Both the position numbers and the translations under genes were made by a program. Positions 12,489 to 55,010 of a stretch of DNA of 64,000 bases are shown here, piece after piece. Where the stretch lies: NCBI GenBank assembly GCA_021613535.1, contig CP075492.1:14119769-14183768 (forward strand), given 5' to 3'. The notes beneath the pieces are model-generated. The model saw nothing but the letters and a program-made list of their open reading frames with translations, was not told the DNA's origin and did no database searches. Origin of the DNA: Adineta vaga (taxonomy: Eukaryota > Animalia > Rotifera). Numbering within the stretch: position 1 is the first letter of the stretch; each line of letters begins with the position of its first letter.

Positions 12489-13520
12489 TTAATGATGTAA
12501 AGTTGTCGTATGTTTAGCATGCATTGCAGCCATAGGTATGGTATGCATATTAGTTCGACTATCATGATCAGCCGGCATTTGTCGATAAAACCATCTCATT
12601 CGTTTCAAAAGACGAAATAATTTTCGACGAAATGTTGGACTAGATAGTGTATGTAAATAAAATGCAGCACTAAAATTTAAATATGGTAATGTAAATGACA
12701 TATTGATCATGAATACACCTATTAATGTAATTTGAGTGCTTTGTGGCGCAGGATAGATCAAACTATAGATTAGATAGACGGCATATAATATATTACATAA
12801 AAGATCAGTGATGACCTGAGCCAATAACATTGTTATATATTGACCAATGATTTGACGTTCGTTATGTATAACATCATTCGTTGGTAAAATTCGTCTTTGC
12901 ATTGTTTTTAAATGACAAAAAGTAATCAGACCACATATAATCATACTTAATGGAATAGATATGCCTTGAATCAATGCAGATATTGTAGTATAAATAGCAT
13001 ACGTTGAATTTGGTGGTGATAAACATTGACCATAGATTATTGTATGATATATTAAAGCGGGTGACGAATACACGAAGGAAAAAATCCATATAAAAACAAT
13101 CAAATAATACGCTACTTTTGGTCGACTTTCCATACGCATCCATGCACTTCTCGAACTAGCACACATTCGATCAACGCAAGCAAATAAAATTGATAATCGA
13201 TAAATTAAGAAAGAAGTACTAGTCAAATAAGTACGTAAACGACAGAACCATAATGAAGTTAGAGCAGGATCAATATTGTAAAGACCACGAACAAGACGTA
13301 GTACAAGACCAAAATTTAATATAAATATATCAATAATTGATGCAGATAAAAAGTAAAGTAAACAAGAATTTGAACGTGATGTTGGTCGAGCAAATATTAA
13401 CAAATTCAAACAATTACCAATATTTCCCAATATAAAACAAATTGGTAATATAATATAATTAAAAGACCAATTCACATCATTGAATATAGTTGTTAAACTA
13501 GAAACGAAAGTGCCTGACAT
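12489..13520 (-). CDS. class-A-like orphan GPCR (7TM), paralog of 11511..12476, 343 aa
   Basis: ATG at 13520-13518. LGNIGNCLNLLIFAR and ACVDRMCASS motifs. It is tail-to-tail with the previous gene, with only 12 bp between the stop codons. Confidence 0.7.
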   Translation of the reverse strand: MSGTFVSSLTTIFNDVNWSFNYIILPICFILGNIGNCLNLLIFARPTSRSNSCLLYFLSASIIDIFILNFGLVLRLVRGLYNIDPALTSLWFCRLRTYLTSTSFLIYRLSILFACVDRMCASSRSAWMRMESRPKVAYYLIVFIWIFSFVYSSPALIYHTIIYGQCLSPPNSTYAIYTTISALIQGISIPLSMIICGLITFCHLKTMQRRILPTNDVIHNERQIIGQYITMLLAQVITDLLCNILYAVYLIYSLIYPAPQSTQITLIGVFMINMSFTLPYLNFSAAFYLHTLSSPTFRRKLFRLLKRMRWFYRQMPADHDSRTNMHTIPMAAMHAKHTTTLHH

Positions 13521-14367: not shown

Positions 14368-15225
14368 ATGAGCGGCTCCGGAGAGCGTTTTACAGACGTT
14401 GATGTAACCAATAAACGCTTACCAGCGTGTTTTGGTTATATCGCATGGAAGGTATTACCTATTGAACAAGCTATGGCAGACTTAAATAGTTGTCTGCGCG
14501 AAATCAACAGATTTGTCAAGCTTGCCAAGAGATACTGTACATTTCCAAATGACCATCAGTTGACTAAAGATGAAGCCACGGCCATATATATTTATACTAT
14601 GGAAATGTCGGAAGATGAATGCATCTACCGTATATTAAATCAAACGTTACGTCTCGAAGATCGAACTAAAGTTCGGCCATGGTTCCCGTATTTAAAATTA
14701 TTTGACTCTGCAGTAGCTAAATTACCAACGTTCAAAGGTGTCGTCTGGCGTGGCGTTAATAAAGATGTCAGCCAGTCGTTCAAAAAAGGCCAAAAACTAA
14801 CTTGGTGGAGTATTAGCTCATGCTCAACATCAGTAAAGGTTATTTCATCGTTTTTGGGTGAAGTTCCTGAAAGCACTCTTTTTAACATTCAATGTTCGAC
14901 TGGAAAATGTATTGCAGCATACACATGTTACCCAAGTGAAAATGAAATTATCTTAATGCCAGGTACAACATTTGAAGTTGTAGACGATCCATTACATCAT
15001 CATGGTGGTTTACATATAGTTCATTTAAAAGAAATCAACGAGGAAGATGATAACGAAGACGATGATAAACAAAGAGAATCCATAGAATTAGCAACTCCCC
15101 AACCTATGGCTGCTGCTTCTGTGTCACAAAAATTCGAAAAATTGATCATAGGTAAAAATAACATGCAGGGTACTTCCTCTAAATTTACTGATCGACTCCG
15201 CAGTCTTTTTCTTACAATTTCTCAA
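14368..15225 (+). CDS. R-S-ExE mono-ADP-ribosyltransferase (ART/toxin-like, PF01129-type), first coding exon
   Basis: ATG at 14368. AIYIYTMEMSEDECIYRILNQTLR (aromatic-R block), VWRGV (the Arg in the hvYRG-like block), WWSISSCSTS (STS) and YPSENEIILMPGTTFEV (Q/E-x-E) are present. A consensus donor CAA|GTAAGT lies at 15226 and an AG acceptor 60 bp later at 15285, so the 3' end is probably spliced. A Pro-rich candidate downstream exon lies at ~15581..15696. Confidence 0.7.
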
Positions 15226-18200
15226 GTAAGTGCTCGCATTGACCTGCATCCTGTCATGGCTCTTCTCTGCTGGATAATATTCTAGGGGAAAGTACACAGT
15301 CCGATAATCTTAGAAAACTGAGAAGAATTCAATAGTATCTATTGGAACTCACATTACTCTCTTTAGTTCATTTTCTGGAGAGAAGTAAAAACTGACTTTA
15401 TAGTTCGCAAATACAATAGAGAATGGTTAGAGTACATCTAGTGAAGATATATTTGAATCAGTATTATGCTTTTATACCGCAATTATTCTGTTACTCGGAT
15501 TACACTCGTGAAGAAAAGATAATGTTTTATCTATGAGTATCAGTATGAACATGGAGTTATAAGAAATGGTCTCTTTCTCTATTTAGACCCTTATCACGCA
15601 AGTCCTTCAAAACCCAGCGATACATTTCATGGTACGAAGAACACAATGACATCAACTGAGCCATTGCCTAAACCTGTATCTATGCCAAAACCAGGTATGT
15701 TAATTTGAAGAAATTTACAATCTTTTCCTCACATCTAACCTCTCCATCGGTTTCAACATGGAAGAATTCTATTCGATCCACATAGAAGTCTCTATCTCTG
15801 ACGAACTATATCATAGTATCAAAATTCCTCACTTTCTATTCCAACGTATCTTTGATAGTTCTGCTCCTATTTTATTTAATACTTGTGCTTTGAAAAATTA
15901 TAAATTTTCTACGCAACATATGTGTGGCAGTCGGTTAGGGAATTTAGTTGAGATTGGAATATAGAAAAATACTATCTAAATCTATATTTTTATTTGTAGA
16001 GAGGAAAAATAGAATTGATAATTGTATATTAAAGAAAACAGTTATAATTTATTTAACTATGTTATGAAACGTTAAATAATTGTTTTATAAAGAGGATATT
16101 GATTTTTGTAAAAGTAGACAGATTTTTTTCATGAGCGGGACATGCGGGACATTGAAATTTTATATTGAAAGATAGAGATTTTCGTAGAAAAAATAGTTTT
16201 CTTTTCTAGGTGAGAAATGCGGCACATAGAGTTTTCTTTCGTTTTGTATTAAGAGAAAGATTTCTGCTACCTATTTTTCCTGTTACGGTTTATTTGACAC
16301 TGATTTAAATAAATCTTTCTCTTTCCCTTTTTTAAAAATTAGTTTTCTGCAATTTCTTATTTAGAATATAGGTGAGGCTGCTTCCGAATATTTCAATGTA
16401 TAAAAAAATATATTCGTATGCATAGAATAAGTATTTGCGAAGCATAAATTATATGGATGAAAAATGAATTATCTCTCAGATTTTTTTTAGAAAATAGAGG
16501 TTTTGTTAAATATTTTTATTGACTAACTAGAAATAGAATGTAATGAGTGGTACACTACTTTAGATATTGATAAAAATTTAGACAAGTTTGAAAACATTAC
16601 GAGCAGAGAGCTGATGAAAATGGCAACATAAATTAAAACGAGAAATAAAGCAGTTCAGTTTGAGGAATAGGAATATCGTTTTTTAGTGCCCCTTGAAATC
16701 AAAATAAAGTTGGAATAGTTTAGACGAAATGATTTCGAGTAGGAGGTAAAAAAGGCAGGGAGTACAATTGGTTAATGAAGTAAATATTTCTACAAAATTT
16801 GACAAGTTAAACATGTAACAAAGAGTTTAATAACTTAATTTAAAATGATTATCATAGGACTATCGCTAAATCTTCATTTTGTAGGAACGAACATCTACTA
16901 AGAGAATATAAAATAGAGAAATGATTGTGTCACTTAGATTTCTTACATAATAATATTTTGAAACACACTCTTTTATTCTTTGATAAAAAGAAAACGGTGT
17001 GAATGACAAAATGTTTCTTTATGAAAATCCGTTTATAATATTCCATTCGATTCAGATAGATTTATTGATGAAGAAATCTATTTAATTTTCGTTTCTCTTG
17101 TTTCTGTCTATTTTTTTCGCGCATTCCAATCTCAACTGAATTCTCATGTCAACTGTGACATTTTTATTTATAGATTTAGCAGTATCGTTCTGAGCTGTAG
17201 TAGATCTAAACACACAGGTAGTACTAGTTATTGATGGTAATACAGATAGAGACACAGAAAGTAAACATACAAGAGAAGAGATAGTTGACATGAAATACTC
17301 GCAGTCTTCACTTTAGCTAAATACTATAGTCATTAATCGAATGTTTTCCAGCATACTATTGTTCATCTCCTTCATAACTCTGTAACAGCTATGAATTTTT
17401 GTTTTAGAAGATAAAGAATTTGCTGAGCCTGGTAGCTGTGACAAACTCTATCACAATTATTCATTTGTTCTATGTCCAATAACTAACGAAGCATAGTAAG
17501 ACAACGGATTTAGACAAAATAATGTAAACGAATACAACTTTTGTCATAGGCAATCGTATATTCGATGCTTTATTGCAAATATATTCTAGCAGAACTTCCA
17601 TGTCTAGTGCGAGAAATATATGAACGAAATGCTGAAGGGCGTCGTATCTATTCATTTTGTCTGTCAACTATGAACTGTCCATGAAGTGTTATATTTGACT
17701 GAAAAGAACAAATAATAATCGAATGCTATGATCCTTGTGCAAAATGTCACAAGTGTCGTTGTTCTTATTCTATTATCGTATAATCAGAAATTAACAAATG
17801 AACTTCAGACTTTTATGAGATTAAGAAAAATAATGGAATAGAACTTTGATTTAAACGATTCAAAGGACATACTTTTTCTTTATGTTGATCGATTGAGTAA
17901 TATCGCTTTCAAACAACTGAAGTAGATGAATATGATCATTGGAATTTTCTAAATCATTCATGTGCTGCGTGAATATCAGTGGTCTATCCGTCTGAAATAT
18001 GAGCATTATTGTAGACAAAATAGGCTAATACAATCTACTGGTGATAGTAATTATTCATTTAATCAGTGAAACGTAAAGCTATGATTATGAACGAGTCATT
18101 CATTTCATATTAGTGAAATAGATGAATAGAAATGTCTGCCCATGTGGAAAATGATTGTACATTTAGTATGTAATGTTTTCATCTGAAGCAATAAAGAACA

Positions 18201-19597
18201 GCTTGTTTCTAGAGGAGTCGTATTAATAAACGAGACTATTGGGTACTGACAATTTGTTTTTCATGTGATTATTTATTGTCTGCGTAGATTGGATACTTCG
18301 CATCGTTGTAGGTGAAATAGTTGAATAATATGAATGTAATAAGAATAATTTAGTTTTCATGTGATCATTTCACAGGTGAACAACATTCAATATCAAATAC
18401 AAAGTGATTAGTATAGGAGATCATGGCCATTACGACAATTATAACCAACCATTTATAGTGCCATCGTCGAACTGTGAGTATGCTTCGATCTTTCTTTGAT
18501 GATATATCTTATTACTGAATAAGAACATTGGAGTCCGGAAGACAAGAAAATAATCATTCATTTTACATGGAATAACCTGTCTCAAAGAATAATTAACGTC
18601 TTCAATTTTAGGATCTTCGAAATAAGTGAATTCATCTCGCTGTGGTAAATAGTGATGGATGTATCATGAGATGTATGATTCACTTTGTCATTCGCATACA
18701 TTAGTAGGATCTTTATGAGATAGATGAACAGAATACCGATCATAGTCATCTATGAGTGATACATCTTCAATCCATATTGTAACTTGAAAAGTATTTCTGG
18801 TCCATGAGAATGATAAGCGAACGTCACGATGGTGGAAATAATATATTTGCCATATTACCTTTCATATTCTTGTCAACTCGTTGTACTTCTTCGAATTATA
18901 AAGTAAATAAATGAATGAATCCTTCGTTCGTATAATACCATTTTGATACGAACTATATTTATTTAAATTAGGGCTGATTTTAAAACTGAGTCGCAAATAT
19001 ACATGAATAAAGTACTTACAATCCTACTATTCATTTATATCGTACATTTCTTTTATTCAAACTGATTGAATTAAACCTTGATAGGAAATATTATTCAAGA
19101 ATGGAATTTGCTTCGCTTTTATTCGTTAACAATGTCATATTAACTCTATTGCATTCATTTCTATCAACCGCTTCTAAATAATCTTGATAATTGAACCGGC
19201 ATATTTCACAAAGCGTTGTCACTATTCATCTCACCTACGATCATTGATGACCTAGAACCAGGGCACCTATATTCATTACAAAGGAATGAATTTTGCGAAC
19301 AGATCTGTCTCAACAATTCATTTAATACGTGATAACAAATTGGCTGCATGAATTTTTCTATCTTTCCGGAGTCTCATATACGAACAGAGTAATGATCTCA
19401 TATATTCATTAACTTTGTGATATGTTCTCAAACATCAAACTTGAAAGCTCTCTTCAAGAGCTCATCCAACTAATAGAGAAATCTTTGGTACAAACTATTT
19501 ACCTACCATACAATCTTCAAATAAGTGATCCACACGTAGATATTACTTCACTGTCTTAACAAATACATGAATATGATATTGCGACTTGTTACTCGTA

Positions 19598-22500
19598 TTC
19601 AGTTGTTGTGTGATAGAGGTTGATGTGATTGAATGTTGATGTTGGTATGGAAGTGGGAAAGAGAGTTGAATAGAAGAATTATGAGAGATGTTCAGTTGTT
19701 GTGTGATAGAGGATGATGTGATTGAATGTTTATGTTGGTATGGAAGTGGGAAAGAGAGTTGAATAGAAGAATTATGAGAGATGTTCAGTTGTTGTGTGAT
19801 AGAGGATGATGTGATTGAATGTTGATGTTGGTATGGAAGTGGGAAAGAGAGTTGAATAGAAGAATGATGAGAGATGTTCAGTTGTTGTGTGATAGAGGAT
19901 GATGTGATTGAATGTTGATGTTGGTATGGAAGTGGGAAAGGGAGTTGAATAGTCGATTCGTGGTAGATGTTCAGTTGTTGTGTGATAGAGGATGATGTGA
20001 TTGAATGTTGATGTTGGTATGGAAGTGGGAAGGAGAGTTGAATTTCGGAGTGGTGGTAGATGTTCAGTTGTTGTGTGATAGAGGATGATGTGATTGAATG
20101 TTGATGTTGGTATGGAAGTGGGAAAGAGAGTTGAATAGAAGAATGATGAGAGATGTTCAGTTGTTGTGTGATAGAGGATGATGTGATTGAATGTTGATGT
20201 TGGTATGGAAGTGGGAAAGAGAGTTGAATAGAAGAATTATGAGAGATGTTCAGTTGTTGTGTGATAGAGGATGATGTGATTGAATGTTGATGTTGGTATG
20301 GAAGTGGGAAAGAGAGTTGAATAGAAGAATGATGAGAGATGTTCAGTTGTTGTGTGATAGAGGATGATGTGATTGAATGTTGATGTTGGTATGGAAGTGG
20401 GAAAGAGAGTTGAATAGAAGAATGATGAGAGATGTTCAGTTGTTGTGTGATAGAGGATGATGTGATTGAATGTTGATGTTGGTATGGAAGTGGGAAAGAG
20501 AGTTGAATAGAAGAATTATGAGAGATGTTCAGTTGTTGTGTGATAGAGGATGATGTGATTGAATGTTGATGTTGGTATGGAAGTGGGAAGGAGAGTTGAA
20601 TAGAGGAATGATGAGAGATGTTCAGTTGTTGTGTGATAGAGGATGATGTGATTGAATGTTGATGTTGGTATGGAAGTGGGAAAGAGAGTTGAATAGAGGA
20701 ATTATGGTAGATGTTCAGTTGTTGTGTGATAGAGGATGATGTGATTGAATGTTGATGTTGGTATGGAAGTGGGAAAGAGAGTTGAATAGTGGAGTAGTGG
20801 TAGATGTTCAGTTGTTGTGTGATAGAGGATGATGTGATTGAATGTTGATGTTGGTATGGAAGTGGGAAAGAGAGTTGAATAGAGGAATCGTGGTAGATGT
20901 TCAGTTGTTGTGTGATAGAGGATGATGTGATTGAATGTTGATGTTGGTATGGAAGTGGGAAAGAGAGTTGAATTTAGGATTGGTGGTAGATGTTCAGTTG
21001 TTGTGTGATAGAGGATGATGTGATTGAATGTTGATGTTGGTATGGAAGTGGGAAAGAGAGTTGAATAGAAGAATTATGAGAGATGTTCAGTTGTTGTGTG
21101 ATAGAGGATGATGTGATTGAATGTTGATGTTGGTATGGAAGTGGGAAGGAGAGTTGAATTTCGGAGTGGTGGTAGATGTTCAGTTGTTGTGTGATAGAGG
21201 ATGATGTGATTGAATGTTTATGTTGGTATGGAAGTGGGAAGGAGAGTTGAATTTCGGAGTAGTGGTAGATGTTCAGTTGTTGTGTGATAGAGGATGATGT
21301 GATTGAATGTTGATGTTGGTATGGAAGTGGGAAAGAGAGTTGAATTTCGGAGTGGTGGTAGATGTTCAGTTGTTGTGTGATAGAGGATGATGTGATTGAA
21401 TGTTGATGTTGGTATGGAAGTGGGAAAGAGAGTTGAATAGAAGAATGATGAGAGATGTTCAGTTGTTGTGTGATAGAGGATGATGTGATTGAATGTTGAT
21501 GTTGGTATGGAAGTGGGAAGGAGAGTTGAATAGAAGAATGATGAGAGATGTTCAGTTGTTGTGTGATAGAGGATGATGTGATTGAATGTTTATGTTGGTA
21601 TGGAAGTGGGAAAGAGAGTTGAATAGAAGAATTATGAGAGATGTTCAGTTGTTGTGTGATAGAGGATGATGTGATTGAATGTTGATGTTGGTATGGAAGT
21701 GGGAAAGAGTTGAATAGAAGAATGATGAGAGATGTTCAGTTGTTGTGTGATAGAGGATGATGTGATTGAATGTTGATGTTGGTATGGAAGTGGGAAAGGG
21801 AGTTGAATAGTCGATTCGTGGTAGATGTTCAGTTGTTGTGTGATAGAGGATGATGTGATTGAATGTTGATGTTGGTATGGAAGTGGGAAGGAGAGTTGAA
21901 TTTCGGAGTGGTGGTAGATGTTCAGTTGTTGTGTGATAGAGGATGATGTGATTGAATGTTGATGTTGGTATGGAAGTGGGAAGGAGAGTTGAATAGAAGA
22001 ATGATGAGAGATGTTCAGTTGTTGTGTGATAGAGGATGATGTGATTGAATGTTGATGTTGGTATGGAAGTGGGAAAGAGAGTTGAATTTAGGAGTCTTGA
22101 GAGATGTTCAGTTGTTGTGTGATAGAGGATGATGTGATTGAATGTTGATGTTGGTATGGAAGTGGGAAAGAGAGTTGAATTTCGGAGTGGTGGTAGATGT
22201 TCAGTTGTTGTGTGATAGAGGATGATGTGATTGAATGTTGATGTTGGTATGGAAGTGGGAAAGAGAGTTGAATAGAAGAATTATGAGAGATGTTCAGTTG
22301 TTGTGTGATAGAGGATGATGTGATTGAATGTTGATGTTGGTATGGAAGTGGGAAGGAGAGTTGAATTTCGGAGTGGTGGTAGATGTTCAGTTGTTGTGTG
22401 ATAGAGGATGATGTGATTGAATGTTTATGTTGGTATGGAAGTGGGAAGGAGAGTTGAATTTCGGAGTAGTGGTAGATGTTCAGTTGTTGTGTGATAGAGG

Positions 22501-25048
22501 ATGATGTGATTGAATGTTGATGTTGGTATGGAAGTGGGAAGGAGAGTTGAATTTCGGAGTGGTGGTAGATGTTCAGTTGTTGTGTGATAGAGGATGATGT
22601 GATTGAATGTTGATGTTGGTATGGAAGTGGGAAAGAGAGTTGAATAGAAGAATTATGAGAGATGTTCAGTTGTTGTGTGATAGAGGATGATGTGATTGAA
22701 TGTTGATGTTGGTATGGAAGTGGGAAAGAGAGTTGAATAGAAGAATTATGAGAGATGTTCAGTTGTTGTGTGATAGAGGATGATGTGATTGAATGTTTAT
22801 GTTGGTATGGAAGTGGGAAGGAGAGTTGAATTTCGGAGTGGTGGTAGATGTTCAGTTGTTGTGTGATAGAGGATGATGTGATTGAATGTTGATGTTGGTA
22901 TGGAAGTGGGAAAGAGAGTTGAATAGAAGAATGATGAGAGATGTTCAGTTGTTGTGTGATAGAGGATGATGTGATTGAATGTTGATGTTGGTATGGAAGT
23001 GGGAAGGAGAGTTGAATAGAAGAATGATGAGAGATGTTCAGTTGTTGTGTGATAGAGGATGATGTGATTGAATGTTTATGTTGGTATGGAAGTGGGAAAG
23101 AGAGTTGAATAGAAGAATTATGAGAGATGTTCAGTTGTTGTGTGATAGAGGATGATGTGATTGAATGTTGATGTTGGTATGGAAGTGGGAAAGAGAGTTG
23201 AATAGAAGAATGATGAGAGATGTTCAGTTGTTGTGTGATAGAGGATGATGTGATTGAATGTTGATGTTGGTATGGAAGTGGGAAAGGGAGTTGAATAGTC
23301 GATTCGTGGTAGATGTTCAGTTGTTGTGTGATAGAGGATGATGTGATTGAATGTTGATGTTGGTATGGAAGTGGGAAGGAGAGTTGAATTTCGGAGTGGT
23401 GGTAGATGTTCAGTTGTTGTGTGATAGAGGATGATGTGATTGAATGTTGATGTTGGTATGGAAGTGGGAAGGAGAGTTGAATAGAAGAATGATGAGAGAT
23501 GTTCAGTTGTTGTGTGATAGAGGATGATGTGATTGAATGTTGATGTTGGTATGGAAGTGGGAAAGAGAGTTGAATAGTGGAGTCTTGAGAGATGTTCAGT
23601 TGTTGTGTGATAGAGGATGATGTGATTGAATGTTGATGTTGGTATGGAAGTGGGAAAGAGAGTTGAATTTCGGAGTGGTGGTAGATGTTCAGTTGTTGTG
23701 TGATAGAGGATGATGTGATTGAATGTTGATGTTGGTATGGAAGTGGGAAAGAGAGTTGAATAGAAGAATTATGAGAGATGTTCAGTTGTTGTGTGATAGA
23801 GGATGATGTGATTGAATGTTGATGTTGGTATGGAAGTGGGAAGGAGAGTTGAATTTCGGAGTGGTGGTAGATGTTCAGTTGTTGTGTGATAGAGGATGAT
23901 GTGATTGAATGTTTATGTTGGTATGGAAGTGGGAAGGAGAGTTGAATTTCGGAGTAGTGGTAGATGTTCAGTTGTTGTGTGATAGAGGATGATGTGATTG
24001 AATGTTGATGTTGGTATGGAAGTGGGAAGGAGAGTTGAATTTCGGAGTGGTGGTAGATGTTCAGTTGTTGTGTGATAGAGGATGATGTGATTGAATGTTG
24101 ATGTTGGTATGGAAGTGGGAAAGAGAGTTGAATAGAAGAATTATGAGAGATGTTCAGTTGTTGTGTGATAGAGGATGATGTGATTGAATGTTGATGTTGG
24201 TATGGAAGTGGGAAAGAGAGTTGAATAGAAGAATTATGAGAGATGTTCAGTTGTTGTGTGATAGAGGATGATGTGATTGAATGTTTATGTTGGTATGGAA
24301 GTGGGAAGGAGAGTTGAATTTCGGAGTGGTGGTAGATGTTCAGTTGTTGTGTGATAGAGGATGATGTGATTGAATGTTGATGTTGGTATGGAAGTGGGAA
24401 AGAGAGTTGAATTTAGGAGTCTTGATAGATGTTCAGTTGTTGTGTGATAGAGGATGATGTGATTGAATGTTGATGTTGGTATGGAAGTGGGAAAGAGAGT
24501 TGAATTTAGGAGTCTTGAGAGATGTTCAGTTGTTGTGTGATAGAGGATGATGTGATTGAATGTTTATGTTGGTATGGAAGTGGGAAGGAGAGTTGAATTT
24601 CGGAGTGGTGGTAGATGTTCAGTTGTTGTGTGATAGAGGATGATGTGATTGAATGTTGATGTTGGTATGGAAGTGGGAAAGAGAGTTGAATAGTCGATTC
24701 GTGCTAGATGTTCAGTTGTTGTGTGATAGAGGATGATGTGATTGAATGTTGATGTTGGTATGGAAGTGTGAAAGAGAGTTGAATTTAGGAGTCTTGATAG
24801 ATGTTCAGTTGTTGTGTGATAGAGGATGATGTGATTGAATGTTGATGTTGGTATGGAAGTGGGAAAGAGAGTTGAATTTAGGAGTCTTGAGAGATGTTCA
24901 GTTGTTGTGTGATAGAGGATGATGTGATTGAATGTTGATGTTGGTATGGAAGTGGGAAAGAGAGTTGAATTTAGGAGTGGTGGTAGATGTTCAGTTGTTG
25001 TGTGATAGAGGATGATGTGATTGAATGTTGATGTTGGTATGGAAGTGG
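19598..25048. repeat. tandem satellite array: ~58 copies of a 93-bp monomer with a ~1.5-kb (16-monomer) higher-order repeat
   Basis: Monomer: gatgttcagttgttgtgtgatagaggatgatgtgattgaatgttgatgttggtatggaagtgggaaagagagttgaat plus a 15-nt variable cassette (agaagaattatgaga, agaagaatgatgaga, ttcggagtggtggta, agtcgattcgtggta, ttaggagtcttgaga and others). Monomer starts at 19690, 19783, 19876 and 19969 give a 93-bp period. The diagnostic variant agtcgattcg recurs at ~19951, 21808, 23297 and 24688, and the run 21421-22200 is repeated at 22921-23700. Confidence 0.95.
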
Positions 25049-25701
25049 CAGCCAAAGATGGATTACATCCTCATGTATGCCTATGCGAGATGCATTAACT
25101 TGTTCAATGAACATTCTGCGACTGAGGATAACACTCTTTGTAAATCGATTCGTTGGATGATAATTTAATATTCTTAAAATAAAAAATGACTGGAAACCAG
25201 AAAAGGGACACAGCGCGTTAATGCGAGCAAGCGCAAGCGCTTGCGAGCACGCTCCGAAAAACCGTCGATAGACGGCGCTAATTTACGGTGAATTAATTTT
25301 TTCCCTTATAAACATAAATACTTATATACGTAGCCACTGCAAAAGGACACAGAATAATGAAACATTTCAAGTGATACTGAGATATATATCCTTTCGCAAA
25401 CGCACCCGCTATGAATACCGTTCTGCTCACACTTTGCAAGGATTGCTTAATCTCAATCTACCATACAATTGCCACGGGATGTTGCTTTAACTGCACATCT
25501 GCTTCGAAATATAAACTGAACAAATCCTTTATACACATATTTTACGCATATTGAAAAATCACGATCGCCCTCTGATCTGCGCATCTAAAACGAAGAAATC
25601 CTCTTTCTGCACAATGCATTCAAACCAAGGCAACTTTAAACTGCACTATAAAGCACTCGAAAAGGTTCCCTTTATCACCCATACAATCACACTTAAGGTT
25701 T

Positions 25702-25735
25702 CCTCTCTTTCCCACTTCCATACCAACATCAACAC
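25702..25735. repeat. isolated inverted fragment of the satellite monomer
   Basis: ctttcccacttccataccaacatcaacac is the reverse complement of the monomer core gtgttgatgttggtatggaagtgggaaag. It lies ~650 bp beyond the array end. Confidence 0.7.
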
Positions 25736-26699
25736 TGAAACGTATTCGCTCTTTAGTGCAGAAGTGTTTTCATTCTAATATTGGAATGGGAAGAAACTCG
25801 TGAAAATGTTCGACGTATAGAAGTCGGTAGTTTGACAAGCGTCGCTAGTGATTCGAAGTTGTTTGCCGGTTTCATTTGTGTTTAAGAAAGGCGAACTGTT
25901 TAAGTTGCTGGTCTAAATTCATCAATTTTTACTCTTGCGGATAGTAATATAAAATGAAAGTAGTCAATCAGTACATTAATAACGTGAAATCCGATTCTCC
26001 AGAGAGTTCGATATTTTTAGCTGTTTTCTTTGGTTCAACAGGCCATTTTGACACAGTATGAAGGTAATCATGATTAAAATCGCTTTATATAAGACAAAAT
26101 CTTGATTAATAAGAGACAAGAGCAGATGAGATGAATGGGGAATTGCCGCTGTACTTATCAAGTGTCTTCATTTTATGATATTTTCAGCGTGTGTAAAAAA
26201 TGATGATTTTTCGACCATCCCCTTTATTCAAATCTGACTGCACAACAAGGTTATTCTATATTCGTATTGTTAGTTGAGATGGTAAAGGGCACTCTAGTAT
26301 TTATCTTCGTCGAGCCGCTCCTGCGGTCTTTTTGCAGTGTTCATGTTGGGCGCTCGGAATCTTTTCGTCAGGAAATCATTTTTAAATCAGGTTAATATTC
26401 GTACACATGGGCCACTTATAAGTCTGATAAATATTCAGCAGTTTTTCATTTATCGGTTGATGAATTTATTATTTAATAATTATTGCAGATGAGTCGATAT
26501 ACTCATCAAGTAGATTAAAAAAAAATAAGCGAAGAATGAGAAATCTTCGGAAAGGGTATATGACGTTAAACTCAGTTTATGTACATGAATAGTTTTTTGC
26601 TTTTGTAAAAATTAGATCGCAATTATTAGATGTATGTCTGAATAAGAAAAGTACTTCTAGTTCGGTTCGTTCGATTGCATCGGATCGTCTTCTCTCGAC

Positions 26700-26905
26700 C
26701 AAAGACTCGTTATCCTTCGGGAAGACCAGGGGCGTCCCGAGAGGGGGGCGCGTGGGGCGTAACGCCCCCCCCTGCTTCGGGAAAATTTTTGTTTTTTTTG
26801 CTCGCCAAAATTTTTTGCAGCAGAAAAAAAAAATTTTTTCGGAAAATTTTCAAAAATTTTTCGCTGCGCCCCCCCTGCTTTTGGCACCTCGGGACGCCCC
26901 TGACG
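26700..26905. repeat. GC-rich nested inverted-repeat (hairpin) island flanked by A/T homopolymer runs
   Basis: Outer arms aggggcgtcccgag (26731-) and ctcgggacgcccct (-26892). Inner arms aggggggcgcg…cgccccccc, with a duplicated gcccccccctgctt block. The three overlapping ORFs across it on both strands indicate low-complexity DNA, not coding sequence. Confidence 0.6.
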
Positions 26906-27197
26906 ATTCGTATACTTGAACGAAGCCTTTTCAGATTCAAGATCATAGTAAATTTCAATCGTTTTCGCCACTGTATGATATTGACTATTCGATCTAGTGA
27001 TAACAGCAATTGAGATAATGAAACCATTCTGCTTCAGTTTTTCTGCCATTTGTGTGCTTTTGTGACTGAAGAAGAATGGCTATAGCGACATCGATGAACA
27101 TAATATTGAGTAATTATATACAACTAAATCGTTACATTAGCTATTGTTTCGTCCTCTCTCATCTTTGTTCCTGAAAAGTTGAGTAGAATCAATTTCT

Positions 27198-28193
27198 TTA
27201 CCTAAATTTTGCTATACTGAACACTTTAGCAATGACAGTCGTAATACAGTTGCTTTCGTTGAATCCATCACCTACCACCAGTTTTAACGTATGAATATAG
27301 CAGGGTATTCGTAAAAGTTCGCTGGTACTGAGCGATGTATCACACCAGTGACAAATCACATCTTTTTCGTTTCCACTTCCTATTTCATCATCATCTTGTT
27401 CGTCAACAGATTCACTTGAAGGTTCCTCAAAGTAAGTTTCGAAACCAGGCACAATAACAGTACCATACGCTTTGATATTGTACGATGTCGTGATCATTTC
27501 GTATTCTTTGAACAATTTTTCGACGGTATGGCTGCCTTAACAGAAACATTTGACAGAAAAGAGTTTTAAATAAGTACATGGTTTGATATGCATATCAGAC
27601 AGATATTTGAATGCCAAAAAATGAGAATGAAAAATATTTTGATCTATCAAATGAATGGTGATATGGCATAGAAGGAACGCACTCTGCGATGAGTCCAAAG
27701 ATCAAATCATGTGTTATCATTCTTGACAATTCGACTTGTCGTGGATGGTTACTTGAATATTTTGTTCCATCTTGAGGGCTTGTCATTGCTGTCTTGCTAT
27801 CCGGTTGTTGAGATAGAATTTTCTCTTCTTTCAAAGCCAATATATTCGACCATCTCTTATATTCATCCATGTGATGGCGTTTAACGTGACGTACAAAATT
27901 GAAATATGAATCACCAGAGTTATTCACGGTACCACTGCAGAGTAAGCACATAGCCGACTTGTGCCAAACAGGATGATCCAAGCTTTATCTTTTGCGTTGG
28001 AATCTGCCACGATTGTTGGGCTCACAAGAACGGCAGGATCGTCATCAATTGTAATCGTTGCAGCATCATAAGATTTATCAGGATCAGAAGCCATTTTAAA
28101 TGAAAGACAAATAGCACAGCTTCTCAGAAATCGTCCGTATGCAATATAGCAAGCAAAGTTTGTTTGTGTACAGCTCGTTGTGCTTGCTAACAA
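27198..28193 (-). mobile_element. hAT-superfamily transposase relic (N-terminal half: BED zinc finger plus the C..H-TLKL block), frameshifted
   Basis: Three ORFs in different frames. 27981..27595 carries a BED finger (HPVWHKSAMCLLCSGTVNNSGDSYFNFVRHVKRHH). 27515..27198 has CYIHTLKLVVGDGF, resembling the conserved hAT RCxAHTLNL block. There is a frame switch near 27990 and no C-terminal hAT dimerisation domain. Confidence 0.55.
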
Positions 28194-28324
28194 ATTCCCT
28201 CTCTAATCGTACGGCCTGTTTGTTAAGTATGTTAATAATTTACACGTAAATTTATTCTGTTACAAAAAAAAGGCCTCCAGATTAGAATACTTAAAGTGTT
28301 AAAATAAAGAAAAATTCATTTAGT

Positions 28325-30878
28325 TTAGCTATTAATCGGATCGTTGCTAAGAAGCAGATGTTGAATAAACATATCCCATGATGAATCGTTGAGTTCTAAT
28401 TGTTTACAATAGATACCATGACGTTGGCTGGTATGCTGATAGAAATCAATCGCTTTGTATATCTGTTCGTTCATATTAGTAGATGAATTCTTGCAAATAT
28501 AGTCCTAAATGGTATTGAGAAATTTAAAGGAAAATCAAAGAAGATTTAATTTACTTTAATTTGTTCGATATTAAATGGAAATTCAAATGTATCATGATGT
28601 AAAATTTGCATTTGAAGAACGAGCCATAAGAGGATAACACCTGTACCAATCAAACGAAGAATTTCATTTTGTAAATTTAATGCTAATAAAATGATAGTTC
28701 ATATTTCTTTATAGTTTATATTGATAGTACGCAGTCGCTTACCGAGTGATTTTAAACCATGTTCGTTTAAATAATACTCAAGATTATGAAAAATAGTCTG
28801 ATCAAGGTGAAACACATCAGCTAACTCTTTATTTAATAGAAATGATCCATTCTATATTCGAATATTAAGAACATGTAACAAATAAATAATGAAATTTCGA
28901 AGAATTCTTACTTCAGATTGAAGTTTTAGTAGTTCATTCATCATTATTGGTGTCGATTGAATATCTTTCAATTGTCGGAGAAATGAAATATCAGTTGTCT
29001 TTTCTAAATGCAAATGCTATAACAATGTATAACAATGACAAGAGATAAATTACTAGAGAAATTCTGTATTATAGTCTGAACATGACCAGCAAGCTGCGAT
29101 AAAAGATTTCAAGATATAGTACAAAATCAAATTAGAATACGAACTTGATACAAAGGATCATCTGATTTGCGAGCATAAACTATATAAAGAAAACAAGAAT
29201 TAAATATTATTTATATTGGTTTAAAACTGACCCGATTTAGCTACAGCATTGGCTTGACTTTCAACGTATGCAATATGTTGTTCAATCCAGTCTTTTGTTG
29301 ATCCTAGATAATATAAATAATATTCTATCTATAGGTAAATCGCTGTCGAACTTTGATGATTAGAATCAACAGTATATGAAACTTTGGCACCTGAACGTGC
29401 TTCTTCAGCATCAACATGAAGTATACCATTTGCATCAATATTCATGCGAACAGCTATTTCAAGTGTTTGAGCAGCAAAGTTGTTTGTTAAACCAGAAAGA
29501 TTGAACTCTCCCAGAAACATCTACGATGAAACAAGATCATTTAAATCATATTTTAAACTGATTGAAATATGACGTACATTGTATTTTGTCAGAGTATGTT
29601 CACCTTCAAAAATGCGAATGGTAGCTGTTGTTTGATAAGCATATGCATTTGTAAATATTGACCAAAGTTCAGTACGAACTGGAATAGTTGTATTGCGACG
29701 AATAAGTGTATGCATATGACCATGAATATCTTCAATGCCCAATCCAAGTGGACAAACATCGAGAAGTAATAAGTCACAGATAGGAGTAATGCATGCTGCA
29801 TCATTCTTTTTTCTTAATCCAAAGTAAAATATTATCGATGAGAAATAGTGGTTCTTGTGAAACTTTGTAATACTTACAGTTTTTCTTGTCTACATTCATC
29901 TCCATCGAGAAGTGGTTTATTCGTAGGTACTGATCTACACTTACTGATCTTTAACTTTGGTTCTAATGCAATCGATGGCCCCATACAGCCACTACTCATT
30001 TGCTGTGTATTCGATGCTGCCTCTTCTGCTAATGATATTGTTCGATATGCTCTTTCTGGTGATAGTAGTCTGGCAGGTGAATTAGAATACAGACAGTTAG
30101 TATTAAGGTTGTCCATACGATTGAATGTTGTTTCATATTGTGGTACTCCTCCGGATAGCTCCTCCTCTATGCTTGACATCGGAGAAACGGATGCTGGTTG
30201 ATTTTGAAGCAACTGAGATGAAAGTTCAAGAGTATCTGTGAGAGTGAGACGAGACGATTCACCATTTTCACCGCCAACACAATCATTTTTACAGGCTGAA
30301 TCAGTTCGTTTTGATCGTAGTTCTGATAACCGGCTTGCTAAAAATAAAGATTGTTTACTGCTATATTTACATTTATGAAGATACTTTCATAAGTATGAAT
30401 ACAGAAACAAGTTCCGCACATCTCATGTTATCTTTAAATAGTATTACTAACTAAAGTCAATATAGGATGTTTCATCCATACAGTCTAAAAAGCCAAGATC
30501 GACATTATTCCAATCATCTGCTGTTTCTAATTCTTCTAGCACATGTTGCCATGGACAGTCTTCCTTTGTGAGTTCTTCCTCAATCTTGTCAAGATACATC
30601 ATATTATCAGTAGTTGGAAGCTGTTTGTTACATATTGTTGATGAACTTGCTGTTGCTGCTGCTGTTGATGGTTGAAGGAAGTCATTGGTATAATCAGGTA
30701 CGTCATCTAGCTAATAAAGAAACAGTCTAAATATAGAGTATTGAATTAGGTACCGAAGTGCATAGTTTTCTTATCTCTTCTGTTTTTTCATTTATAAGTA
30801 CTAAATTGTTCGCTTGACATTGTTGTTCTAATGCTTGTCGTTCTTCTGCAGTTGCACCAGCCATTTCCGTTATTATAT
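28325..30878 (-). CDS. HSP70 substrate-binding-domain-like exons, probably the 3' part of the PARP4-like gene (alternatively a separate downstream gene)
   Basis: Exon ~29818..29578 encodes KKNDAACITPICDLLLLDVCPLGLGIEDIHGHMHTLIRRNTTIPVRTELWSIFTNAYAYQTTATIRIFEGEHTLTKYN. After a 57-bp intron (donor AAT|GTACGT), exon 29520..~29350 encodes MFLGEFNLSGLTNNFAAQTLEIAVRMNIDANGILHVDAEEARSGAKV. Together these are a clear HSP70 SBD-beta match (LLLLDV, GIET, RNTTIPT, EGER, DIDANGIL). Upstream exons 30878..30804, 30713..~30445 and 30339..29876 were mapped with consistent phases. More 3' exons run to the stop at ~28325. A donor GAC G|GTATAT at 30941 and the acceptor at 30879 join this frame to the PARP4-like exon ending at 30942. 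Confidence 0.55.
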
Positions 30879-30933: not shown

Positions 30934-33900
30934 TTATATACCGTCTCGCATTTTCTGTTCAAATTCATCTGCTTTATTGTATTCATTCAATGAATAGCGA
31001 TATGTTCGTATAATACTCATCATTATGTCAAATTTCACATCTTCACTTGCTCGATAAGAAATATCCTGACAGATTTTTTCAATATCATGAATAACATCTT
31101 TTTTTCTTGCAATCGATGCACTTTCAAGTGCAATACGTGCATCAATTAATTTCTGTTTAATTAATGATAAATTTGACACATCACCATCCCATCTCATATA
31201 TGGAAATAAATCAACATCATGTTCAAGCATAACATCAAGAAGACGAACACCTACAATAGATAGTACATCATTTTACTAATAACGCTGTGCACGAATATAC
31301 CTGGTACAGATGTTTTTAAATCTGTTTTCATATCACGTTCTTCAATAGCAACAAAACTTGTATATGCACTAACAACAGAATGTTTTATACTTAGGTCAAT
31401 AAGATCTCGTTTATATTGAATTTTCATCAATTCATTTTCACTTTCGTCCAAATCGAATAATCCATTTTCATAATCATCAATAATCGTTCGAGCAGTTAAA
31501 CAGTGTAAAATACGACCGGTAGTTGCTGTCATTGAACTACTAAATACATTGGTCACAAATTCTTGTCCATCAATCAGTACTGACAATGTTGCTTTATGAC
31601 AATTTCGTATAAATCGATAGACAGTAAGTCGCATTCCATTGAATAATGATCGAATCATTTTCGGTGCTTGCATGTGAAATTTTTCTTGTTCATCTACATG
31701 ACCATGCCAATCAATCGAAATACTTGTCACACATGGTTGTCGAACATAATCGAGAATATTCAATACTTTTGTTTTCCATTTCGATCGATAATTTGAATCG
31801 AATATTGTTGCTAGACCACCTCCACTTGCTCCATTAGCTAACTGTTTTAAACAATGTTTATTCGCAACATTACCAATCGAACACGTAAATAGACGATCAT
31901 AACGCATAGTGAGCTGTTGTTTCAGTAGAATAAGAATCGAATTGAGATCATTAATATGTCCATCAGATACGAGAATAAACTGACGAGCTACCTTCGATGG
32001 TAATAATGAATAACGATGAAGAACAGAGAATAGATCTGTATTTCCACGATGAATCAATGAATGCTGAAATACATGAAAAGAATAAGATATACTTCAATTT
32101 CAAAGTAGATTACAAACCAAAACAAAATGTTTAGCTCTATCAAGATTCTCTTTTGTAGTTGGTACGGATATTGGAAAACATTCATCATTATCTAAGTAGT
32201 TTAAATGAAAAGAATAGAAAACGATCCCTGTATTCTACCTGATCCGAAAGTAATGAGATTAAAATATGTATTTTCATCATCGATTTTCATATTTGTTAAA
32301 AACAAATGAGTCAATTGTTTTGCCTGTTGTGAATGATTTCCATCCATTGAATTCGATACATCAATAATGAAAATAATTTCAATTTGTTCATTTGTATTCA
32401 TTAATGTTTCAAATCGTGGATAGAAAGTTAACATACATGCTTGAGAAGTGAAATAATCTGATGATAATGTTTCAATGGACATTCGAGGTAAATTAGGATT
32501 ATGTAATGTGATTGAAAGAATGAAATCTCGATCGAGTAAAACATTATCCACTAGTTCAATCATAGCAATACAATTTGTTAATTTTCGACGAAGACGATGC
32601 GTTGGTGAAAAAAGTTTTGTTATATTATATGGCATTCGAATGGATGTTTTAAAAGTAAATTCGACTTTTTCATTTATAATACCAAATGATCGTAAAATTG
32701 ATTGATCTCTTGTTTCAATTGCTTGTTTTGATTGCCATGATGTCATTTTAGCTGGAAGACGAAATATAATATCATCATTTTCAATTTCTAATTCAGCGAC
32801 ATAGGTTATTTTAATGATCACTTCATTATTTGCTGGCAGATTACCAACAGCTACACTGAAGACTTGTGCTTCTTCCTGATGCATTAAATACGCACCATGA
32901 CCTTTTTCAATTGCTTCTCGATATTCTTGTTTAGCTTGTTCTTTTTCTTTTACAACTCCTTTGATTACTTTATTATTAATATGTGCTTCAAAACCACAAA
33001 CCGTGGAATTTTCATCAAGTGGAAATACATATTTAGCTTCGATTGGTACGGAACTTGTATTGTGATAGACTTGATACATAACAACCTTTGTTTAGGAAAT
33101 AGAAATCGCGAATGTATTAACTTTGATAGAAGAATTAACTGTATATTACTTCAACTGTAGTATCAACAATTTGTGCACGAATATGAAATGATTTCAGTGG
33201 TACAAGTTTTCCTGATGATGGACATATTAAACCATAATCTTGTTCAGCTACTTCAATAATTTCATCATCGATGGTCATGAGAACTTCGACTATATGACCT
33301 TACCGTCATAGGTTTATTTCTAATCAAGAAAGACTTATTCTTACCATGTTCACTTAACTTCAATGTATATTGATCATGATGAGTTATTGATAAGCGTTCA
33401 AATTCATTATTTAGAACATCCTTCGGTAACCATGATACTTCCACAATATAGAGTAGAAGTTGTTGATCCAGTCGATAGATTGCATATTCATTATCCTAGT
33501 TGAATAGCAATCACTTTTATTTTTGGAGTTTTCAAATTCGAAAAGATACTTACAATAAACATTGAATGATTCTCTTCAGTTCGTTTAATTCCATGAGTAC
33601 TATGAAATCCATCGGCAGGTTTAGTAAGGGTTGGTGAAAATGAATAATATTTGGCAGATTCACCTAGTGCTACTCGACAAATGCATAATAACCGACGACC
33701 TGGTCGTACTGTGCTTGCTGTCGTATATTGGAGTGAAGTTGAAACGGAATCAGAAAAATATATTCCATAACCAAGACAACCAACATCCGTACGTGTGACA
33801 CCTAATTCTTCAACTACCATTTTCGGCATCACTAAACCGCTGAATATACAGCATACATTTACTACGTAAATATTTAAGAAATGCAATATAAATATATACT

Positions 33901-54960: not shown

Positions 54961-55010
54961 TATGTAGTGGGTGTGGGTGTATAACTTCTTCTCTTACCCA
55001 CACCCTCAAA
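54961..55010. repeat. hairpin (GTGGGTGTGGGTG … CACCCACACCC) at the junction between the beta-helix gene and its truncated copy; element copy 3
   Basis: agtgggtgtgggtgtataacttcttctcttacccacaccctc. The arms are (TGTGGG)2-like and the loop contains CTTCTT, as in the other copies. Confidence 0.45.

What the first reader, a model, noticed from the sequence alone, without database searches (positions are those of the whole stretch)
19598..25048. 5.45-kb satellite: 93-bp monomer (78-bp constant core plus 15-nt variable cassette) organised in ~1.5-kb higher-order repeats
About 58 monomers with a period of exactly 93 bp (= 31 codons). The core is near-invariant. A 15-nt cassette takes one of about a dozen recurring states, and the order of states repeats: 21421-22200 matches 22921-23700 monomer for monomer. 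The variant agtcgattcg recurs at spacings of 1857, 1489 and 1391 bp. That is a 16-monomer HOR, indicating recent unequal-crossover homogenisation. The layout superficially resembles repeat-spacer organisation, but the 'spacers' recur and are 15 nt. A 4.3-kb ORF-free, very AT-rich block precedes the array, so this may be a centromere- or heterochromatin-associated satellite.
Basis: seen in the sequence. Interest (0 to 1): 0.6.

Follow-up and report, generated by a model that had tools for sequence, protein, structure and literature searches.

The report
Ordinary non-coding 93-bp satellite, bdelloid rotifer
This is a real but ordinary 5.45-kb block of 93-bp DNA repeats lying between genes in a bdelloid rotifer chromosome; it encodes no protein or structured RNA, grew by unequal exchange, and nothing here ties it to a centromere.

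Summary
The array is real. It spans 19598-25048, with period 93 and 58.6 copies at 94% match. The "HOR" is narrower than claimed. It is one recent tandem duplication of a 16-monomer block (21365-22850 / 22851-24338), differing by 3 substitutions and one 2-bp indel. Older partial blocks also exist, but there is no signal at lag 32. The "variable cassette" has 15 states, of which only 7 recur. They look like mosaics of a few parental types. The host is a bdelloid rotifer, whose species is absent from the databases searched. The array sits in a ~14-kb stretch with no recognisable intact gene, between the 3' end of an ART gene and Hsp70-like fragments read toward it. A frameshifted BED-finger (hAT-like) remnant lies nearby. 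The + strand is almost C-free. That leaves two minus-strand frames nearly open, but both contain stops, there is a frameshift, and neither has a protein homologue. No Rfam family or RNA fold was found, and no related DNA turned up elsewhere. The left flank is ORF-poor but not unusually AT-rich. The centromere idea is unsupported: the array is small, the "HOR" has two copies, and Adineta vaga shows no discrete centromeres. Verdict: a lineage-specific non-coding satellite of low interest. Its extreme strand asymmetry remains unexplained.

The parts
19598..25048 (.). 93-bp tandem array. It holds 58 full monomers plus a 59-nt partial one, in 22 distinct full-length monomer sequences. The + strand is G/T/A-rich with only 92 C in 5,451 nt.
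   Evidence: TRF; monomer table and base counts; 58 in-array matches to a 31-mer against 0 expected by chance.
21365..22850 (.). Copy 1 of the 16-monomer block (monomers 19-34; 1,486 bp). It carries the 2-bp AG deletion at about 21709/21710.
22851..24338 (.). Copy 2 of the 16-monomer block (monomers 35-50; 1,488 bp). It differs from copy 1 by 3 adjacent substitutions in one cassette plus the 2-bp indel.
25702..25741 (-). Orphan partial monomer in inverted orientation, about 655 bp beyond the array end. 33 nt are identical to monomer core (TGTTGATGTTGGTATGGAAGTGGGAAAGAGAG). Weaker similarity extends over 25682-25739.
   Evidence: nhmmer E = 6e-7.
15286..19597 (.). Left flank. It is ORF-poor (longest open stretch 86 codons), has no Pfam match and has GC 30.7%. 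It starts at the stop codon of the ART gene (14368-15285, + strand).
25049..29331 (.). Right flank with no recognisable intact gene. It contains the orphan monomer, a 176-bp MITE-like element (26727-26902) and a frameshifted BED-finger/DUF659 (hAT-like) remnant (about 27198-28202, - strand). It ends at Hsp70-like fragments (29332-29889, - strand).

Best explanation
This is a lineage-specific, non-coding 93-bp satellite (large minisatellite) array. It lies in an intergenic pocket with no recognisable intact gene, which carries at least one transposase-like remnant, in a bdelloid rotifer chromosome.

Shown:
- It is a head-to-tail array of one strongly strand-asymmetric monomer.
- Its variants are shuffled among monomers.
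- Its most recent large event is a tandem duplication of a 16-monomer, 1,488-bp block.

Inferred:
- The array expands, contracts and homogenises by out-of-register exchange between sister chromatids or homologues, or by template switching during double-strand-break repair.
- Short-tract gene conversion creates the mosaic 'cassette' states. These derive from a few parental types, mainly ...ATAGAAGAATKATGAGAG and ...ATTTCGGAGTGGTGGTAG.
- The array makes no protein and no structured RNA. It most likely has no sequence-specific cellular function beyond being repetitive DNA that may be packaged as silent chromatin.
For: Array and period.

Non-coding:
- All three + strand frames have 146-204 stops.
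- The two nearly open minus-strand frames still carry stops. By my own count of monomers with stop-creating variants in the table, checked against the open stretches, frame a is hit in about 23 monomers and frame b in 7.
- A 2-bp frameshift is also present.
- Their near-openness is expected, because a G-poor strand can form only TAA stops.
- The monomer shows no period-3 signal and no internal sub-repeat.
- Neither frame has a homologue among 5.8 billion clustered proteins.
- A search of 1.84 billion representatives gave only compositional hits at 20-35% identity to unrelated repetitive proteins.

No RNA:
- No Rfam family and no tRNA were found.
- The + strand dimer folds no better than shuffles (z = -0.31). 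The - strand has a minimum free energy of 0.

Exchange dynamics:
- Lag 16 gives 15 exact monomer pairs, against at most 12 in 2000 shuffles.
- The two 16-monomer blocks differ by 3 substitutions and one indel.
- 27 of 66 site pairs show all four allele combinations.
- Singleton monomers cluster at the array edges and in one patch (monomers 10-14).

Context:
- The host is a bdelloid: the neighbouring ART protein is 71-75% identical to Rotaria and Adineta proteins.
- ART (+ strand) ends at 15285 and Hsp70-like fragments (- strand) lie at 29332-29889.
- A BED/DUF659-like remnant lies at 27.2-28.2 kb.

Lineage-specific: no DNA match in metagenome, viral or prokaryotic collections, and no match in the literature.
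Against: - Variation is concentrated in columns 75-88 (p = 1.4e-4). Under pure neutrality it should be spread more evenly. This could mean the core is constrained, for example as a binding site, or simply that one multi-nucleotide replacement was later recombined.
- The monomer is a strong compositional outlier. C-less runs reach 92 nt, against a maximum of 56 nt in the other 58.5 kb. I have not explained this.
- The period is a multiple of 3, and frame b is open for 774 codons.
- Genome-wide copy number, transcription and chromatin state are all unknown.
Confidence: 0.8

Rival explanations
1. The array is a decayed coding tandem repeat. It would be a former exon on the minus strand encoding a 31-residue Ser/Thr/Pro/His/Gln-rich repeat with a variable 5-residue patch, now a pseudogene. 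Frame b reads ISHHSSIQLSFPLPYQHQHSITSSSITQQLN. Frame a reads HLSSFFYSTLFPTSIPTSTFNHIILYHTTTE.
For: - The period is 93 = 31 codons.
- Frame b is open for 774 codons (24412-22091). It also stays open for 78 codons upstream of the array, and that stretch includes an ATG.
- The common T variants that create stops in frame a are silent for openness in frame b.
- A G-poor coding strand is typical of Ser/Thr-rich low-complexity exons. One example is the minus-strand ORF at 6230-6883, where GC skew is also positive.
Against: - Reading from the upstream ATG, frame b hits a stop in the very first cassette (and direct reading).
- Frame b has 7 stop-bearing monomers and a frameshift.
- There is no signal peptide and no homologue in two very large protein searches that include bdelloid proteomes.
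- The variable sites show no third-position excess (worked out by hand from the columns), and the monomer has no period-3 signal.
- A repeat using essentially 11 amino acids, without Gly, Ala, Val, Asp, Arg or Cys, is unlikely to be a folded module.
- An open frame has roughly a 0.4 chance of arising in a 93-nt G-less unit.
Confidence: 0.07
2. The array is a centromere-associated satellite. It would be either a classical regional centromere or one unit of a repeat-based holocentromere, as with the Tyba arrays of Rhynchospora.
For: - It is a tandem array with some higher-order structure in a local gap free of recognisable genes.
- A. vaga chromosomes are proposed to be holocentric (PMC13564844).
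- From my own knowledge, repeat-based holocentromeres consist of many small dispersed arrays. A single 5-kb array in 64 kb would not contradict that pattern.
Against: - The array is only 5.45 kb, with a two-copy block rather than a homogenised HOR.
- An intact gene lies 4.3 kb away, and the flank is not AT-enriched.
- There is no second array in the 64 kb.
- Hi-C found no discrete centromeric domains in A. vaga.
- No related repeat appears in any other bdelloid-derived sequence reachable here.
- There is no positive evidence of any kind.
Confidence: 0.04
3. The array derives from a transposable element. It would be the expanded arm of a foldback-like or subterminal-repeat-bearing DNA transposon, with the inverted orphan at 25702-25741 as its other arm.
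For: - An inverted partial monomer with a 33-nt exact match lies 655 bp from the array end.
- A BED/DUF659 (hAT-like) remnant and a MITE-like element lie within 2 kb.
- CGTA occurs just outside both putative ends (direct reading).
Against: - The inverted arm is only about 40-58 nt. It matches the interior of a monomer, not the array terminus.
- The 4-bp flank match is weak, at roughly 1-2% by chance once offsets are allowed.
- There is no second copy of the flanks or the loop anywhere in the window.
- No transposase is associated in a way that defines an element.
Confidence: 0.06
4. The array is an assembly artefact, meaning a collapsed, expanded or chimeric repeat.
For: - It contains a perfectly identical 744-bp internal duplicate (monomers 27-34 = 43-50).
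- It contains a 2-bp AG dinucleotide deletion of the kind long-read consensus errors produce.
Against: - 22 distinct full-length monomer types lie in a largely aperiodic order.
- Both junctions to unique sequence are clean.
- 5.4 kb is well within the length of a single long read.
Confidence: 0.03

Closest known systems
Satellite / large minisatellite DNA of animal genomes evolving by unequal exchange and gene conversion (concerted evolution)
   Same: It is a head-to-tail array of near-identical monomers with monomer subtypes. Variants are more diverse at the array edges. A multi-monomer block has been duplicated. It has no coding capacity.
   Different: Only one 5.45-kb locus is known. Genome-wide abundance is unknown. 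The monomer (93 bp) is shorter than the common 150-180-bp class. Strand asymmetry is extreme: one strand has 1.7% C.
Primate alpha-satellite higher-order repeats
   Same: Monomer variants recur in a fixed order over a multi-monomer period, here 16 monomers or 1,488 bp.
   Different: There are two copies of the block, not hundreds to thousands, and no signal at twice the period. The array is three orders of magnitude smaller. There is no CENP-A evidence, and the host lineage may lack regional centromeres.
Tandem repeats of Adineta vaga, including the two 4mC-hypermethylated repeats beside Athena retroelements (PMC8885841)
   Same: Both are tandem repeats in a bdelloid genome, a class that makes up only 0.84% of the A. 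vaga assembly. The C-rich minus strand is full of CA dinucleotides and carries a few CG dinucleotides. These are the contexts most often 4mC-modified in A. vaga.
   Different: The tested A. vaga fragment is 451 bp, and the published primers for it look unrelated to this monomer by eye. No Athena element was recognised beside this array, but no specific search for one was run. Methylation cannot be tested here.
CRISPR repeat-spacer arrays
   Same: They share a superficial constant-plus-variable periodic layout.
   Different: The genome is eukaryotic. The 'spacer' is a 14-nt patch of a few polymorphic sites whose states recur. The constant part is 78 nt. No cas genes were seen among the window's ORFs of 150 aa or more, but no dedicated cas search was run.
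Modular repeat proteins with a hypervariable patch, such as TALE repeats of 33-35 residues
   Same: The unit is a 31-codon near-identical repeat with variation focused on about 5 codons.
   Different: Both candidate frames are broken by stops. There is no homologue, and the amino-acid alphabet is extremely restricted.

Membership tests
Non-coding satellite / tandem-repeat DNA | Head-to-tail copies of one monomer with high identity | tested here: met
   58.6 copies, period 93, 94% matches; 57 of 58 spacings are exactly 93 bp.
Non-coding satellite / tandem-repeat DNA | No protein-coding or structured-RNA capacity | tested here: met
   Stops occur in all six frames and there is a frameshift. No homologues were found. 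No Rfam hit. No fold beyond shuffles.
Non-coding satellite / tandem-repeat DNA | Monomer present at many copies or loci genome-wide | not testable with these tools
   Only the 64-kb window is available. Within it there is one array plus one orphan fragment.
Centromeric HOR satellite (alpha-satellite type) | Multi-copy, homogenised higher-order repeat units | tested here: not met
   The 16-monomer block has two copies only. Lag 32 gives 0 exact monomer pairs.
Centromeric HOR satellite (alpha-satellite type) | Large array (hundreds of kb or more) in a gene-free, compositionally distinct region | tested here: not met
   The array is 5.45 kb. An intact ART gene lies 4.3 kb away. Flank GC is 30.7% against a median of 31.7%.
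Centromeric HOR satellite (alpha-satellite type) | Association with CENP-A/CENH3 nucleosomes | not testable with these tools
   This needs ChIP or CUT&Tag.
Repeat-based holocentromere unit (Tyba-like) | Many small arrays of the same monomer spaced along every chromosome and bound by CENH3 | not testable with these tools
   This needs the whole assembly and chromatin data.
CRISPR array | Short repeats separated by unique spacers of similar length, with adjacent cas genes, in a prokaryote or virus | tested here: not met
   The host is a bdelloid rotifer. The variable patch has 15 states, 7 of them recurrent, built from 9 polymorphic sites. No cas genes were seen among ORFs of 150 aa or more; no dedicated cas search was run.
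Coding tandem-repeat protein (mucin-like or modular) | One uninterrupted reading frame across the array | tested here: not met
   The best frame (b) has stops in 7 monomers and a 2-bp frameshift. Frame a has stops in about 23 monomers (monomer counts are mine, from the table, checked).
Coding tandem-repeat protein (mucin-like or modular) | Homologous proteins, or a frame conserved in relatives | tested here: not met
   No hit at E <= 0.01. Only compositional hits appeared among 1.84 billion representatives.
Foldback-like DNA transposon | Two long inverted arms made of tandem sub-repeats, flanked by a target-site duplication | tested here: inconclusive
   The inverted arm is only 40-58 nt. A possible 4-bp CGTA flank match exists. 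No other copies are available.

The most novel reading that the evidence does not exclude
The 93-bp repeat could be a functional chromatin element of a bdelloid chromosome. One version is that it is one unit of a dispersed, repeat-based holocentromere. The other is that it is a strand-asymmetric target for N4-methylcytosine/H3K9me3 silencing: the G-poor strand offers about 37% C, largely in CA context, on one strand only. Under either version the near-invariant 78-nt core would be a constrained protein-binding module, and the 14-nt patch would be unconstrained.
Probability: 0.04. Interest if true: 0.75.

Novelty: new member of a known kind. Interest (0 to 1): 0.2.

Why it matters
As it stands, this adds one previously undescribed satellite family to a group of animals whose genomes are notably poor in tandem repeats: 0.84% of the assembly in A. 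vaga (PMC8885841). Its monomer map is a clean small example of block duplication plus short-tract conversion. That could be used to study mitotic or meiotic-like recombination and break repair in an asexual, desiccation-tolerant animal. It would matter much more only if the monomer proved to be dispersed genome-wide and bound by kinetochore or silencing proteins. Bdelloid centromere structure is still unresolved.

Tried and rejected
1. Coding repeat. I translated all six frames. I searched both minus-strand frames against 5.8 billion clustered proteins and frame b against 1.84 billion representatives. Only compositional matches came back, so I rejected it.
2. Structured RNA, ribozyme or tRNA. 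The Rfam gathering scan and ARAGORN found nothing. Folds were no better than shuffles.
3. Internal sub-repeat or microsatellite origin of the monomer. Circular autocorrelation showed no significant shift and no period-3 signal.
4. Related arrays elsewhere. Two metagenome scans found nothing: a 26-mer, and a periodic 13-mer pair that hit only 3 unrelated repeats of period 24, 44 and 6. Viral and prokaryotic scans also found nothing. A Rotaria locus encoding the closest named ART paralogue has no such array and is not syntenic. A literature string search returned 0 hits.
5. Exact look-ups of two window proteins, to identify the source assembly. Neither is on record, and the A. vaga homologue P0010 is not on record either.
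6. Pfam on flank ORFs. The left flank gave nothing. The right flank gave only Hsp70 fragments.
7. A PDB sequence search of the putative transposase remnant found nothing useful. A protein search then showed bdelloid homologues with weak zf-BED and DUF659 matches.
8. Link to the 4mC-hypermethylated A. vaga repeats. The tested fragment there is 451 bp, and the published primers look unrelated to this monomer by eye. I did not pursue it further.
9. Bacterial promoter and terminator scan. It is uninformative for a eukaryote.
10. Dispersed repeats linking the flanks to the rest of the window. None were found.


Full report
**1. Observation**

Tandem Repeats Finder reports one large array at exactly the stated coordinates: 19598-25048, period 93, 58.6 copies, 94% matches. 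I split the array on the invariant start TTCAGTTGTTGTGTG. This gives 59 monomer starts, with 57 spacings of 93 bp and one of 91 bp. The 91-bp unit comes from a 2-bp AG deletion at about 21709/21710.

There are 22 distinct full-length monomer sequences. A 31-nt core probe matches 58 times in the array and once elsewhere, against zero expected by chance. So the array is real and far beyond chance.

**2. Composition**

The + strand of the array has 2028 G, 1823 T, 1508 A and only 92 C. GC skew is about 0.9. Each monomer has one constant C, and the others occur only in the variable patch.

C-less runs of 92 nt occur in the array. The longest C-less run in the other 58.5 kb is 56 nt. The monomer has no internal sub-period and no period-3 signal. 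This asymmetry is real, and I have not explained it.

**3. The 'cassette'**

Substitutions occur in fourteen alignment columns, and nine of them lie in columns 75-88 (permutation p = 1.4e-4). Columns 73-90 take 15 states, of which 7 recur and 8 are singletons.

Two states dominate. The first is ATAGAAGAAT[T/G]ATGAGAG (25 monomers). The second is ATTTCGGAGTGGTGGTAG (14 monomers). Many of the others look like mosaics of existing types.

27 of 66 site pairs show all four allele combinations. The only substitutions between the two copies of the duplicated block are three adjacent bases in one cassette. They turn type ATTTAGGAGTCTTGAGAG into ATAGTGGAGTCTTGAGAG, which joins the left half of one existing type to the right half of another.

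I read the cassette as a patch where a few diverged parental versions have been recombined by short-tract conversion. It is not a set of independently acquired 'spacers'.

**4. Higher-order structure**

At lag 16 there are 14-15 exact monomer pairs. The count is 14 with the 2-bp deletion left in and 15 with it restored. Every other lag gives 7 or fewer. The maximum in 2000 shuffles of monomer order is 12.

The matching blocks are monomers 19-34 (21365-22850) and 35-50 (22851-24338). They differ by three substitutions and the 2-bp indel. Lag 32 gives no exact pairs.

So this is one recent tandem duplication of a 1,488-bp block. Older, shorter correspondences exist at lags 13, 20, 29 and 36. It is not a multi-copy homogenised HOR.

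The AGTCGATTCG spacings are 1858, 1488 and 1395. Singleton monomer types cluster at the array ends and in a patch at monomers 10-14, as expected when homogenisation is weakest at the edges.

**5. Coding test**

The + strand has 146-204 stops per frame. The minus strand is G-poor, so only TAA stops can form, and two frames are nearly open.

- Frame a (HLSSFFYSTLFPTSIPTSTFNHIILYHTTTE) is broken by TAA in every monomer carrying either common T variant. That is about 23 monomers, by my count from the monomer table.
- Frame b (ISHHSSIQLSFPLPYQHQHSITSSSITQQLN) is open for 774 codons (24412-22091). It has stops in 7 monomers by the same count, and the 2-bp deletion shifts it.
- Frame b is also open for 78 codons upstream of the array, and that stretch includes an ATG. 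Read from that ATG, it stops in the first cassette.

A 93-nt G-less unit has roughly a 0.4 chance of being open in a given frame, so openness carries little weight. The variable sites show no third-position excess in any frame (derived by hand from the columns).

Neither frame has a homologue among 5.8 billion clustered proteins. phmmer against 1.84 billion representatives returned only nine hits at 20-35% identity to unrelated repetitive proteins. I conclude the array is not coding now. A coding origin cannot be excluded but has no positive support.

**6. RNA test**

There is no Rfam family at gathering threshold and no tRNA. A + strand dimer folds no better than shuffles (z = -0.31). The minus strand has a minimum free energy of 0 kcal/mol.

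**7. Host and context**

Window ORFs include rhodopsin-type receptors, an OSCA/RSN1-type channel, a P450, a pentapeptide-repeat protein and glycoside-hydrolase-like proteins. The ART protein nearest the array is 71-75% identical to proteins of Rotaria and Adineta, and more weakly to Didymodactylos.

The window therefore comes from a bdelloid rotifer whose own proteins are not in the collection.

The ART gene (+ strand) ends at 15285. The next recognisable coding sequence on the other side is a pair of Hsp70-like fragments on the minus strand at 29332-29889, downstream of VIT/VWA ORFs. The array therefore lies in a ~14-kb convergent interval without an intact recognisable gene.

Features of that interval:

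- The left 4.3 kb has no ORF over 86 codons and no Pfam match. Its GC (30.7%) is ordinary for the window (median 31.7%).
- The right side holds a frameshifted remnant whose bdelloid homologues carry weak zf-BED and DUF659 matches, suggesting a hAT-like origin.
- The right side also holds a 176-bp element with perfect 15-bp inverted termini.

**8. The orphan copy**

An inverted partial monomer lies at 25702-25741, about 655 bp past the array end. It has 33 nt identical to the core. Weaker similarity extends over 58 nt.

It could be a by-product of a repair or inversion event, or the short arm of a foldback-like element. The evidence for the foldback idea is thin. The match is to the monomer interior, there is only a 4-bp possible target duplication, and no other copies exist in the window.

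**9. Relatives elsewhere**

- Two metagenome scans found nothing related. The three hits to a periodic 13-mer pair are unrelated repeats of period 24, 44 and 6.
- Viral and prokaryotic scans found nothing.
- A Rotaria locus encoding the closest named ART paralogue is not syntenic and has no such array.
- No paper in the library contains the core sequence.

**10. Centromere question**

There is no positive evidence. The array is 5.45 kb, the block has two copies, a gene lies 4.3 kb away, and the flank is not compositionally distinct.

[quoted passage not shown] Holocentric chromosomes are proposed on the basis of stable inheritance of chromosome fragments (PMC13564844). That makes a classical centromeric satellite unlikely.

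It leaves open, as speculation only, a dispersed repeat-based holocentromere. That idea would need the whole assembly and CENH3 data.

In A. vaga, tandem repeats make up 0.84% of the assembly. Two repeats next to Athena elements are heavily 4mC-methylated, with CG and CA as the preferred contexts (PMC8885841). The tested fragment is 451 bp, and its published primers look unrelated to this monomer by eye. Any methylation of this array is untested.

**11. Verdict**

This is a genuine, lineage-specific, non-coding 93-bp satellite array. It evolves by out-of-register exchange and short-tract conversion, and it lies in a pocket of a bdelloid rotifer chromosome with no recognisable intact gene and at least one transposase-like remnant.

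It is a new member of a known kind and of low general interest. Two features remain unexplained: the almost C-free strand, and the concentration of variation in a 14-nt patch.

Noticed in passing
window 26727-26902: A 176-bp MITE-like element. It has perfect 15-bp terminal inverted repeats (CAGGGGCGTCCCGAG) and G/C-rich ends around an A/T-rich palindromic centre. It is a sharp GC island in AT-rich DNA. Only this copy is in the window.
   Followed up: partly
window 25200-25285: A GC-rich ~80-nt island between the array and the orphan monomer. It contains a perfect 12-nt palindrome (GCAAGCGCTTGC) inside a longer imperfect one, and a CCGTC-GATA-GACGG hairpin next to an A/T run. No Rfam match; its nature is unknown.
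   Followed up: no
window 27198-28202 (- strand): Frameshifted ORF pieces with a C..C...H...HH motif. Their bdelloid homologues (Adineta ricciae, A. vaga and metagenome proteins, 46-88% identity) show weak zf-BED and DUF659 Pfam matches. This is probably a decayed hAT-like or domesticated-transposase gene.
   Followed up: partly
window 29332-29889 (- strand): Two adjacent open stretches match Hsp70 profile positions 381-503 only (E = 1.5e-13 and 8e-7). They lie downstream of VIT/VWA ORFs at 31251-33079. This is either a VIT-VWA-Hsp70-like multi-exon gene or a truncated Hsp70 pseudogene.
   Followed up: no
window 2119-4671, 46114-48330, 55754-57652: Long intron-less ORFs of bacterial flavour: one with a weak GH141-domain match, a 738-aa pentapeptide-repeat protein, and glycoside-hydrolase-like ORFs with a weak GH99 match. 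They fit the horizontally acquired genes for which bdelloids are known. Origin was not tested.
   Followed up: no
window 53607-54369 vs 55009-55667: A local direct duplication at 75-80% nucleotide identity over about 650 bp. It is the only dispersed similarity found by a self-BLAST of the window outside the array.
   Followed up: no
window 6230-6883 (- strand); TRF 6304-6357: An ORF with Thr/Ser/Tyr/Asn-rich low-complexity segments and a 24-bp, 2.2-copy repeat. It gives the second-highest GC skew in the window (0.28), a mild version of the array's strand asymmetry.
   Followed up: no
window 11511-12476 (+) and 12489-13520 (-): Two convergent intron-less rhodopsin-family receptor genes whose ORFs end 13 bp apart, showing how gene-dense the window is outside the array interval.
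   Followed up: no
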